64,000 bases of DNA. It comes from Escherichia coli (GTDB lineage Bacteria > Pseudomonadota > Gammaproteobacteria > Enterobacterales > Enterobacteriaceae). The stretch lies in assembly GCF_036507355.1 (NCBI RefSeq), contig NZ_AP027877.1; one strand, 5' to 3'. Position 1 is the stretch's first letter. Every line of letters begins with the position of its first letter. The position numbers are program-made. Positions 18,001 through 21,000 of the stretch are shown here, in pieces.

Positions 18001-21000
18001 CTGATTGAAGAGCAACTCATCGATTATATCCGCACCACGCTGACCCATGCAGGCGGAATTACCGGTATGCGCCGGATTGCCGATTTTGCTTCGCTGTATC
18101 AGGTACGTACTGGCTCGCACGGTCCTTCCGATTTGTCACCAGTCTGCATGGCTGCGGCGCTGCACTTTGATCTGTGGGTCCCCAATTTCGGTGTCCAGGA
18201 ATACATGGGTTATTCCGAACAAATGCTCGAAGTCTTCCCGCACAACTGGACTTTCGATAACGGCTATATGCATCCGGGAGACAAACCGGGTCTTGGTATC
18301 GAATTCGATGAAAAGCTGGCGGCGAAATATCCCTATGAACCTGCTTATCTACCAGTCGCACGTCTGGAAGATGGCACGCTGTGGAACTGGTAAGGAGTAA
18401 GATAATGAAAAGCATATTAATTGAAAAACCGAATCAACTGGCGATTGTCGAACGTGAAATACCCACCCCGTCAGCGGGTGAAGTACGAGTAAAAGTGAAA
18501 CTTGCCGGAATTTGTGGTTCAGATAGCCATATTTATCGTGGGCATAATCCTTTTGCGAAATATCCGCGCGTCATTGGACATGAATTCTTTGGCGTCATTG
18601 ATGCGGTGGGTGAAGGTGTGGAAAGCGCCAGAGTCGGTGAACGTGTTGCTGTCGATCCGGTGGTCAGCTGTGGTCATTGCTATCCGTGCTCTATAGGTAA
18701 GCCGAACGTTTGTACGACACTCGCTGTATTAGGTGTGCACGTTGACGGTGGTTTCAGTGAATATGCTGTGGTTCCGGCAAAAAATGCGTGGAAAATTCCT
18801 GAAGCAGTGGCCGATCAATATGCGGTAATGATCGAACCTTTTACCATTGCGGCTAACGTAACCGGTCATGGTCAACCGACTGAAAATGATACCGTTCTGG
18901 TTTACGGTGCCGGTCCAATCGGCCTGACGATCGTTCAGGTATTAAAAGGCGTCTATAACGTTAAAAATGTGATTGTTGCCGATCGCATTGATGAACGACT
19001 GGAAAAAGCGAAAGAGAGCGGGGCTGACTGGGTGATTAATAACAGCCAGACACCGCTTGGCGAGATTTTCGCTGAAAAAGGCATCAAGCCGACATTAATT
19101 ATTGATGCGGCTTGTCATCCTTCTATCCTGAAAGAGGCCGTAACGCTGGCTTCTCCAGCGGCACGTATTGTATTGATGGGGTTCTCCAGTGAACCGTCTG
19201 AAGTGATTCAGCAAGGGATTACCGGAAAAGAACTCTCTATTTTCTCTTCACGCTTAAATGCAAATAAATTTCCGGTCGTTATCGACTGGTTAAGTAAAGG
19301 GTTAATTAAACCAGAAAAATTAATTAGCCATACGTTTGATGTCCAGCATGTTGCTGATGCCATTAGTTTATTTGAACAGGATCAAAAACATTGCTGCAAA
19401 GTCTTACTCACTTTTTCTGAATAATACTGAGGTGTACTGGCAATAGCGGACACTACCATTTGTTCTTTTTTTAAGCAGCCATCTGATGATATTTTTCCCT
19501 GAAGGCTGCCGGGGAGATATTCCCCAGACGAGAGTGACGACGCTGACGATTGTAGAAAATCTCAATGTATTCCCGTATTACTGAGATGGCTTCATCCCGG
19601 TTATTAAAACGATAGTGGCTCAGGCTCTCATTTTTCAGCGTTCCCCAGAAGCTTTCCATCGGAGCGTTGTCGTAACAGTTACCTTTACGCGACATTGATG
19701 TTTTCAGACCAAACTGCTCCTGTATGACCCGGTAATCGTATGCGCAGTACTGTGAACCTCGATCAGAGTGGTGGATTAGCCCGGCAGGTGGGCGCTGTCT
19801 CCTGAGCGCCATAAACAGGGCTTTACCTGTCAGCTCTTTTGTCATGCGCTCTCCCATGGCGTAGCCGACAATTTCGCACGTATAAACATCTTTGATGCCA
19901 GCGAGGTACAACCATCCCTCCTGTGTGGCAACATACGTCAGGTCCGCCACCCAGACCTGATTTGGTGCTGTAGGAGCGAACGTCTGGTTCAGCAGATTTG
20001 GCGCAACTGGCAGATTGTGGTTCGAGTTCGTAGTCGCTCTGAACTTGCGTTTCTGCTTACAGCGTAGCCTTAGCTCCTTACGAAGACGTGCCAGTCGGTC
20101 ACGACCAACGATGATGCCATTCTCTGCCAGCTCCGTCTGGAGCCGCCGGGTTCCATATGTTTCGCGAGTGCGGATATGTGCCACCTTAATCTCCAGTTTT
20201 AGCCGCTCATCACTTTGTTTTCTGTCTGAGGGTTCATGCTGTACCCAGTTGTAATAACCGCTCCTGGATACACCAAATACCTGACACATCGCTTCAATGG
20301 GAAATTGTTGTCGCCATTGTTCGATTAACGCGTATTTTTCAGCGACTCCTGTGCAAAATACGCTGTTGCTTTTTTTAATATATCTCGCTCAAGGCGAGCT
20401 TCATTTAACGCCTTACGCAGTTGCAGAATTTCAGATTCCAGTTCAGCCACCGTGCGGGAACCAGGAGTACCGAGCCCTTTTCTGGCGGCGGTAACCCATT
20501 GTCCTAAAGTGCCTTCAGGAAGAGATAATCGGGAAGCGCCTTCACTGATCGAAAGTTGATTTTCAAGAACCGTTCTGACAGCTTCGGCTTTGAACTCTTT
20601 AGAGTAACGTTGGGTTTTTCTGCTCATTATTAGCTCCTTCTGATGCCATTCTATTTCAGGAAGGAGTGTCCGTTAAACTCAGGCTACCTCATACCAATAA
20701 CGGCGAGTAAGTAGTACGCATCTTACCTCTTTTTTAGAGATAACCATTATGTCAATAGAAAAACACGAAAGAAGCACTAAGGATTTGGTGAAAGCAGCAG
20801 TATCGGGATGGCTGGGCACTGCGCTTGAATTTATGGATTTCAAGAGTCATGCGTGTTAACTATTTGATAAATATTAAATTAATTTTTCATTGCTTCGTTA
20901 TGGGGCATGGTTGGGGCAAACTCGCTTAACTGTGTATTTAACAAAGCTACCTGTGCATTATTGTTTTCAGACATCCATTTTCCGTATAGACCCTCCGCAT

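What the first reader, a model, noticed from the sequence alone, without database searches (positions are those of the whole stretch)
19425..20695. IS3-family insertion directly after the rspB stop, with 3-bp duplication
A 1265-bp element with TGAGGT-type inverted ends is bracketed by TAC at 19425-19427 and 20693-20695, starting 3 bp after the rspB stop. It sits about 55 bp upstream of the ydfJ fragment start, so it may carry an outward promoter or polar effect into the neighbouring genes.
Basis: seen in the sequence. Interest (0 to 1): 0.35.

Follow-up and report, generated by a model that had tools for sequence, protein, structure and literature searches.

The report
Ordinary IS600 insertion downstream of rspB
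This is an intact copy of the well-known jumping gene IS600, inserted 3 bp after the rspB stop codon in an E. coli/Shigella-type chromosome; it disrupts no gene, and I found no sequence sign that it drives or blocks its neighbours.

Summary
The element is 1264 bp (19428-20691), not 1265. The right-hand TAC is at 20692-20694, not 20693-20695. It is 99.9% identical over its full length to copies that RefSeq annotates as 'IS3-like element IS600 family transposase'.

It has every IS3-family hallmark:
- TG...CA imperfect inverted ends.
- orfA (HTH) and orfB (rve/DDE) in the 0 and -1 frames.
- An A_AAA_AAA slip site followed by a stem-loop.
- A 3-bp target duplication.

Deleting the element and one TAC recreates a sequence found uninterrupted in 4821 of 5426 complete E. 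coli genomes, so this is a simple insertion. None of those genomes carries this insertion. One draft NCBI assembly has the same junction.

The regulatory speculation is not supported. The transposase faces away from ydfJ, and no outward promoter-like site lies at either boundary. The 'ydfJ fragment' is only the first ~30 codons of a gene already split by a ~17.5-kb Qin-like prophage remnant. The proposed rspB terminator hairpin folds no better than shuffled sequence.

Verdict: already known, low interest.

The parts
19425..19427 (.). Left copy of the 3-bp target-site duplication (TAC), immediately after the rspB stop codon (TAA, 19422-19424)
   Evidence: The empty site in E. coli has TAC once.
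19428..20691 (-). Complete IS600 copy, 1264 bp, with the transposase encoded on the - strand
   Evidence: 99.9% identity over 1264/1264 bp to RefSeq-annotated IS600 copies. It differs by one base from six E. coli copies.
19428..19454 (-). IRR, the right inverted repeat (transposase 3' side), abutting rspB
   Evidence: Read from the tip: TGAGGTGTACTGGCAATAGCGGACACT.
20665..20691 (-). IRL, the left inverted repeat (transposase 5' side), facing the ydfJ' stub
   Evidence: Read from the tip on the - strand: TGAGGTAGCCTGAGTTTAACGGACACT.
20648..20676 (-). Promoter-like site TTAACG-17-TAGAAT, partly inside IRL and upstream of orfA; the probable resident transposase promoter
   Evidence: 9 of 12 consensus matches. 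This is a consensus match only. The position is the one described for IS2's PIRL promoter (PMC3219604).
20325..20627 (-). orfA, 100 aa, helix-turn-helix DNA-binding protein
   Evidence: Pfam PF01527 HTH_Tnp_1, E = 1.5e-20.
20370..20376 (-). A_AAA_AAA slippery heptamer in the orfA 0 frame (TTA AAA AAA GCA), the site of the programmed -1 frameshift that yields OrfAB
   Evidence: phase checked. RefSeq annotates the near-identical copies as 'programmed frameshift'.
20330..20363 (-). Stem-loop whose main stem starts 6 nt after the slip site; the probable frameshift stimulator
   Evidence: Inverted repeat I17. Fold energy -13.1 kcal/mol, z = -2.15, with 3 of 200 shuffles folding as well. The 4-10 nt spacing rule for IS3-family stimulators comes from PMC4066793.
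19471..20388 (-). orfB reading frame (-1 relative to orfA), open from 20388 with an internal ATG at 20289; this is the DDE catalytic domain
   Evidence: Pfam rve PF00665, E = 3.1e-26, and HTH_21. The conceptual OrfAB (385 aa) matches NCBIfam NF033516 over positions 1-369 of 369 at 415.9 bits. The catalytic residues are D229, D289 and E325, with K332.
19798..19798 (-). The single base that distinguishes this copy from all seven other copies compared (OrfAB R277 here, S277 in the one copy conceptually translated for comparison, L005; all seven share the reference base)
   Evidence: The residue lies 12 positions before the second catalytic D. Its effect was not tested.
20692..20694 (.). Right copy of the 3-bp target-site duplication (TAC)
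20750..20841 (+). ydfJ' 5' stub (context, not part of the IS). It ends at the 11-bp prophage attachment core TTATGGATTTC (20831-20841). The rest of ydfJ resumes at 38329.

Best explanation
This is a complete and probably still mobile copy of insertion sequence IS600 (IS3 family). It inserted into the rspB-ydfJ' intergenic spacer of an E. coli/Shigella-type chromosome and duplicated the target trinucleotide TAC.

Shown here: the element's identity, boundaries, gene organisation, target duplication and the uninterrupted empty site.

Inferred from the IS3 family (IS911 and IS2 work): orfA is translated from a weak promoter in IRL. A -1 ribosomal slip on A_AAA_AAA, helped by the downstream stem-loop, occasionally yields the OrfAB DDE transposase. 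That enzyme copies the element out as a circle whose abutted ends are then inserted into a new target with a 3-bp staggered cut.

In this position the element is most likely a selectively neutral passenger. It leaves RspB intact, and the only thing downstream is a gene stub already orphaned by a prophage.
For: - Identity: 99.9% over all 1264 bp to RefSeq 'IS3-like element IS600 family transposase' loci, with some match in 3486 of 5426 E. coli genomes.
- Ends: TG...CA termini with 27-nt imperfect inverted repeats.
- Proteins: OrfA contains HTH_Tnp_1, and OrfB contains HTH_21 plus rve.
- Frameshift: an in-phase A_AAA_AAA heptamer and a stem-loop with z = -2.15.
- Fusion protein: OrfAB covers the whole NCBIfam IS3 transposase profile at 415.9 bits, against a cut-off of 160.
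- Catalytic motif: D229, D289 and E325, spaced 60 and 36 residues apart, with K at E+7.
- Empty site: present as one uninterrupted piece in 4821 genomes, with TAC once.
- Target duplication is typical of the element: 5 of 7 other IS600 copies examined carry 3-bp direct repeats (GTT, CAC, CCT, CGC, GTA).
- Recent or lineage-specific: none of 5426 complete E. coli genomes has this junction. One NCBI draft assembly has it, and its contig breaks 79 bases into the IS.
- Only one base differs from other copies.
- No outward promoter-like sites.
- ydfJ is already split by a prophage remnant.
Against: - Mobility of this particular copy is untested, and it carries a private S277R change in the catalytic domain.
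- Neutrality is inferred from sequence only. Transcripts from rspAB must now run into the IS antisense to the transposase, and the 3' UTR of rspB has been replaced, so an effect on rspAB mRNA stability cannot be excluded.
- The copy-out-paste-in steps and the frameshift have not, to my knowledge, been demonstrated for IS600 itself. They are transferred from IS911, IS2 and IS3.
The name rests on RefSeq annotation of near-identical copies.
Confidence: 0.93

Rival explanations
1. The insertion has a regulatory effect. Either it supplies an outward or hybrid promoter that transcribes the ydfJ' stub and adjacent prophage genes, or it separates rspAB from its natural 3' end or terminator and so changes rspAB expression.
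For: - IS3-family right ends can carry an outward-facing -35 element (PMC3219604).
- IRR here contains TTGCCA, 5 of 6 matches to TTGACA, 10 nt from the tip.
- The IS lies between the rspB stop and a T-run-flanked hairpin at 20705-20729.
Against: - The outward -35 in IRR points antisense into rspB, not towards ydfJ', and no matching -10 lies in the flank at 16-18 nt spacing.
- No promoter-like site on the + strand anywhere in 19200-21000.
- The hairpin is weak (-4.2 kcal/mol) and no better than shuffles (z = 0.15, with 108 of 200 shuffles folding as well). It did not pass the terminator scan.
- ydfJ' is a ~30-codon stub.
Confidence: 0.06
2. The copy is a dead relic. It is structurally intact, but the private S277R substitution inactivates it, so it can no longer transpose on its own, although other copies could still mobilise it in trans.
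For: One nonsynonymous difference from all seven other copies compared, 12 residues upstream of the second catalytic Asp.
Against: - Both reading frames, the slip site, the stem-loop, the DDE residues and both inverted repeats are intact.
- The residue lies in an R/Q-rich segment (ALRRQRPP), not in a motif position.
- The target duplication is perfect, and the insertion is absent from all complete E. coli genomes, which suggests a recent event.
Confidence: 0.1
3. The flanking TAC trinucleotides are a coincidence, and the element arrived by recombination between two IS600 copies rather than by direct insertion.
For: - A 3-bp match occurs by chance 1 time in 64.
- Two of seven other copies examined lack direct repeats, consistent with IS-mediated rearrangement elsewhere.
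Against: The left and right flanks are contiguous in 4821 E. coli genomes, and exactly one TAC lies at the join. That is the signature of simple insertion.
Confidence: 0.01

Closest known systems
IS600 (IS3 family), first described in Shigella sonnei and expanded in all Shigella species
   Same: - 99.9% nucleotide identity over the full 1264 bp to RefSeq-annotated IS600 copies.
- The same ends, the same orfA/orfB layout and the same 3-bp duplication.
- IS600 is one of the five IS expanded in all Shigella species and is also present in EIEC and STEC (PMC7373316; PMC9397093).
   Different: - One private base change (window 19798; OrfAB S277R).
- The insertion site, 3 bp after rspB, is not seen in any of 5426 complete E. 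coli genomes.
IS911, IS2 and IS3, the mechanistic models for the IS3 family
   Same: - TG...CA inverted repeats.
- An OrfA/OrfAB -1 frameshift on an A-rich heptamer with a downstream hairpin.
- A DDE transposase and a resident promoter in IRL.
- An outward -35-like hexamer in IRR that could pair with TAGCCT in IRL at a circle junction (TTGCCA-18-TAGCCT, 8 of 12 matches).
   Different: - These are different elements with only family-level protein similarity.
- The slip site here is A_AAA_AAA, whereas IS2 uses an A6G motif (PMC3219604).
- A junction promoter for IS600 is only a consensus match and has not been shown.
IS600 insertion in E. coli UTAK-23 (NZ_CP169003.1), between rspB and the prophage integrase
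   Same: The same element (2 base differences), the same orientation and the same intergenic neighbourhood, with a 3-bp duplication.
   Different: An independent event 108 bp further downstream, inside the ydfJ' stub, with GTA duplicated instead of TAC.

Membership tests
IS3 family | Length about 1.2-1.55 kb with imperfect terminal inverted repeats beginning 5'-TG and ending CA-3' | tested here: met
   1264 bp with TGAGGT...ACCTCA ends and 27-nt inverted repeats at about 70%. The CA-3' rule is stated in PMC3219604.
IS3 family | Two overlapping reading frames, orfA and orfB, in relative phases 0 and -1 | tested here: met
   orfA is at 20627-20325. The orfB frame is open from 20388 to 19471, offset -1, and overlaps orfA by about 60 nt.
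IS3 family | A slippery A-rich heptamer in the overlap, with a downstream RNA structure, for programmed -1 frameshifting | tested here: met
   A_AAA_AAA is in the correct phase. The hairpin's main stem starts 6 nt downstream, with z = -2.15. Only the sequence signal was tested. Frameshifting itself was not measured.
IS3 family | OrfA with a helix-turn-helix domain; OrfB with an RNase-H-like DDE (rve) catalytic domain carrying D, D(60), E(35) and K/R at E+7 | tested here: met
   PF01527, PF13276 and PF00665 all score above their gathering cut-offs. NF033516 scores 415.9 bits against a cut-off of 160, covering profile positions 1-369 of 369. The residues are D229, D289, E325 and K332.
IS3 family | A short target-site duplication (3 bp for IS600) | tested here: met
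   TAC is duplicated and the empty site has it once. Five of seven other IS600 copies also have 3-bp repeats. The '3-nt target sequence for IS600' is mentioned in PMC9397093.
IS3 family | Copy-out-paste-in transposition through a circular intermediate with a junction promoter | not testable with these tools
   The only evidence is a weak consensus match at a hypothetical junction (TTGCCA-18-TAGCCT). Detecting circles by PCR would be needed.
IS600 (the same element, by my recollection of ISfinder's convention of more than 95% nucleotide identity) | Near-identity to the reference IS600 sequence over its full length | tested here: met
   99.9% over 1264/1264 bp to loci that RefSeq/PGAP names 'IS3-like element IS600 family transposase' (WP_085948186.1). 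The ISfinder reference entry itself was not available, so the test is against RefSeq-annotated copies.

The most novel reading that the evidence does not exclude
The short spacer between rspB and the Qin-type prophage attachment site in ydfJ might be a preferred landing zone for IS600. Two independent insertions in the same orientation lie 108 bp apart, one in this window and one in E. coli UTAK-23. That would imply some regional targeting cue, such as transcription termination, DNA structure or proximity to the prophage end.
Probability: 0.05. Interest if true: 0.2.

Novelty: already known. Interest (0 to 1): 0.07.

Why it matters
It matters little. IS600 is a textbook IS3-family element present in most Shigella and many E. 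coli genomes. This copy interrupts no gene and shows no sign of driving its neighbours. Its practical uses are:
- As a lineage marker: the insertion is absent from 5426 complete E. coli genomes and present in one draft assembly.
- As an annotation note: RspB is intact, and the downstream 'ydfJ' is a prophage-orphaned stub.
- As an explanation of why short-read assemblies of this lineage break just after rspB.

Tried and rejected
1. IR-like target site. The flank CAATAACGG resembles CAATAGCGG in IRR, which suggested IS911-style targeting of end-like sequences. Local alignment of both inverted repeats against the 63-nt empty site scored 7, and 66% of 2985 background windows from the same sequence scored as well or better. 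Rejected.

2. rspB terminator cut off by the IS. The hairpin plus T-run at 20705-20729 folds at only -4.2 kcal/mol (z = 0.15) and was not called by the terminator scan. No support.

3. Outward or hybrid promoters. None reached 8 of 12 matches at either IS/flank boundary, and none was found on the + strand.

4. Hot-spot idea. Only 1 of 5426 complete genomes has an IS600 IRR end in this orientation within about 700 bp of the rspB 3' end. That seems no more than chance would give (my rough estimate, not computed), given thousands of IS600 copies in the collection.

5. Organism identification. The exact junction pattern is absent from GTDB species-representative genomes. Supplements of the Shigella IS survey do not mention rspA, rspB or ydfJ. 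The flanks are 99.0-99.3% identical to E. coli, with the best match for the upstream 19 kb in the O157:H7/O55:H7 lineage. This is compatible with a Shigella or an unusual E. coli lineage, but the question is not settled.

6. Solved structures. No PDB sequence relative of OrfB at E <= 0.001.

7. Other IS600 copies in the window. There are none, and no repeats longer than 200 bp.

Full report
**Observation**

Reading the sequence shows the following layout:
- The rspB stop TAA is at 19422-19424, followed by TAC at 19425-19427.
- The element begins with TGAGGT at 19428 and ends with ACCTCA at 20691.
- A second TAC follows at 20692-20694.

The element is 1264 bp, not 1265. The right-hand TAC is at 20692-20694, because 20693-20695 reads ACC.

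The ends form a 27-nt imperfect inverted repeat of about 70% complementarity. The outer hexamer and an inner CGGACACT block match exactly.

**Identity**

Megablast of the 1264 bp against 5426 complete E. coli genomes gives full-length hits at 99.9% identity. RefSeq annotates these as 'IS3-like element IS600 family transposase' with a 'programmed frameshift'. Some match is present in 3486 genomes.

Seven other copies were compared base by base. This copy differs from all of them at a single position, window 19798, and L010 and L002 each carry one further difference at a second position. Conceptual translation against L005 shows that the shared difference changes Ser277 to Arg in the fused transposase.

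**Anatomy**

The transposase genes lie on the - strand. IRL is therefore at the right end, facing ydfJ', and IRR abuts rspB.

- orfA (20627-20325, 100 aa) contains PF01527 HTH_Tnp_1.
- orfB (ATG at 20289, stop at 19471; the frame is open from 20388) contains HTH_21 and the rve integrase core.
- orfB is in the -1 frame relative to orfA.
- In the overlap, the orfA frame reads TTA AAA AAA GCA. This is an in-phase A_AAA_AAA slippery heptamer at 20376-20370.
- Six nucleotides downstream begins a stem-loop at 20363-20330. It folds at -13.1 kcal/mol (z = -2.15), and 3 of 200 shuffles fold as well.
- That spacing fits the 4-10 nt rule used for IS3-family frameshift stimulators (PMC4066793).

A conceptual -1 fusion gives a 385-aa OrfAB. 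It covers the NCBIfam IS3 transposase model end to end at 415.9 bits, against a cut-off of 160. It carries D229, D289 and E325, spaced 60 and 36 residues apart, with K at E+7.

A promoter-like site, TTAACG-17-TAGAAT (20676-20648, - strand), lies partly inside IRL just upstream of orfA. IS2's PIRL promoter sits in the same position (PMC3219604).

**Simple insertion with a 3-bp duplication**

I joined the flanks with a single TAC. The composite matches 4924 E. coli genomes, 4821 of them across at least 80% of the query, and every listed top hit is a single uninterrupted piece covering all of it. The empty allele reads CTGAATAATACCAATAACGG, with TAC once (L001).

Three-base duplications also flank five of seven other IS600 copies I examined: GTT, CAC, CCT, CGC and GTA. 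The two copies without duplications sit among other IS fragments or share only one flank with another strain, which suggests secondary rearrangement. A paper on IS600 in lacZ likewise refers to a 3-nt target sequence (PMC9397093).

**Distribution**

A 400-bp probe across the rspB/IRR junction finds no complete E. coli genome with this insertion. The single hit covering at least 80% is strain UTAK-23.

UTAK-23 carries an independent IS600 in the same orientation, 108 bp further downstream, with GTA duplicated.

The exact RspB protein of the window occurs in one NCBI draft assembly, GCA_905398585.1. Its contig ends 79 bases into the same IS600 at the same junction. That is the typical signature of a short-read assembly breaking at a repeat.

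The junction is absent from GTDB species-representative genomes.

**Context**

- Upstream, 19.4 kb (mlc, ynfE-F, clcB ... rspA, rspB) is collinear with E. coli at 99.3% identity. The best matches are in the O157:H7/O55:H7 lineage.
- Downstream, the 'ydfJ fragment' (ATG at 20750) runs for only about 30 codons. It stops at an 11-bp core, TTATGGATTTC (20831-20841).
- That core recurs at 38327, where the rest of ydfJ resumes as MDFQLYSLGAALVF....
- The ~17.5 kb between the two cores is a Qin-like prophage remnant that includes flxA and a methyltransferase gene.
- In the IS-free E. coli references, the integrase gene follows directly after the ydfJ' stub. In the window no long integrase ORF remains.

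**Does the IS affect its neighbours?**

- RspB is untouched.
- The transposase and its promoter point away from ydfJ'.
- No sigma-70-like site occurs on the + strand between 19200 and 21000.
- A dedicated scan of both IS/flank boundaries found no outward or hybrid promoter at 8 or more of 12 matches.
- IRR does contain an outward-facing TTGCCA. It pairs with a -10-like hexamer (TAGCCT, 18-nt spacer) only at a hypothetical circle junction. This fits the junction-promoter logic of IS2 but has not been shown for IS600.
- The candidate rspB terminator hairpin at 20705-20729 folds no better than shuffles (z = 0.15).
- Polarity on ydfJ' is moot, because the stub is already orphaned.

The regulatory idea is therefore unsupported, although only transcript mapping could exclude it.

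**Ideas tested and dropped**

- The flank resembles part of IRR (CAATAACGG against CAATAGCGG), but 66% of background windows align to the inverted repeats at least as well.
- Two nearby independent insertions do not make a hot spot. Only 1 of 5426 genomes has an IS600 in this orientation within about 700 bp of the rspB end.

**Comparison and verdict**

The element passes every sequence-level defining feature of the IS3 family and is IS600 by near-identity. The copy-out-paste-in mechanism and the frameshift are inferred from IS911, IS2 and IS3, not tested here.

IS600 is one of the five IS that expanded in all Shigella species, and it also occurs in EIEC and STEC (PMC7373316; PMC9397093).

This is an already-known element in a previously unrecorded but functionally unremarkable position. 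Interest is low. Its main use is as a lineage marker and for correct annotation.

Noticed in passing
window 22369-23597: A second IS3-family element of 1229 bp, encoded on the - strand. It has TGAATCGCCACGG...CCGTGGCGATTCA ends (38-nt inverted repeats, 74%), with orfA at 23540-23256 and orfB at 23199-22387. It sits next to flxA in the prophage remnant. No direct repeat flanks it (AAGG on one side, TAAT on the other), so it may mark a deletion or rearrangement. An IS3-family element next to flxA is also annotated in E. coli S1-CAM-01-C, the best match to this stretch (H40); whether it is the same element at the same site was not checked base by base.
   Followed up: partly
window 41081-41848: A complete IS1 of 768 bp with a perfect 9-bp target duplication, TAGCTTGTT (41072-41080 and 41849-41857). 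It is inserted at the very 3' end of the ydfI reading frame.
   Followed up: partly
window 20831-38337: ydfJ is split by a ~17.5-kb Qin-like prophage remnant bounded by an 11-bp core, TTATGGATTTC (20831 and 38327). In IS-free E. coli references, integrase and excisionase genes follow the ydfJ' stub directly. In the window no long integrase ORF remains.
   Followed up: partly
L002 2809-4072 (E. coli UTAK-23, NZ_CP169003.1): An independent IS600 insertion in the same orientation, 108 bp downstream of the window's site, inside the ydfJ' stub. It has a GTA duplication.
   Followed up: yes
L008 and L009 (E. coli 200112 and CH4796): Two IS600 copies share the same IRL-side flank (CCCAATAACGGATAACTCCT) but have different IRR-side flanks. 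Only CH4796 has a 3-bp duplication (CCT). This suggests an IS600-mediated rearrangement or adjacent deletion in strain 200112.
   Followed up: no
window 20753: The ydfJ' stub begins ATGTCA (Met-Ser) in the window but ATGACA (Met-Thr) in both E. coli reference loci examined. This is a point difference of no evident consequence in a pseudogene stub.
   Followed up: no
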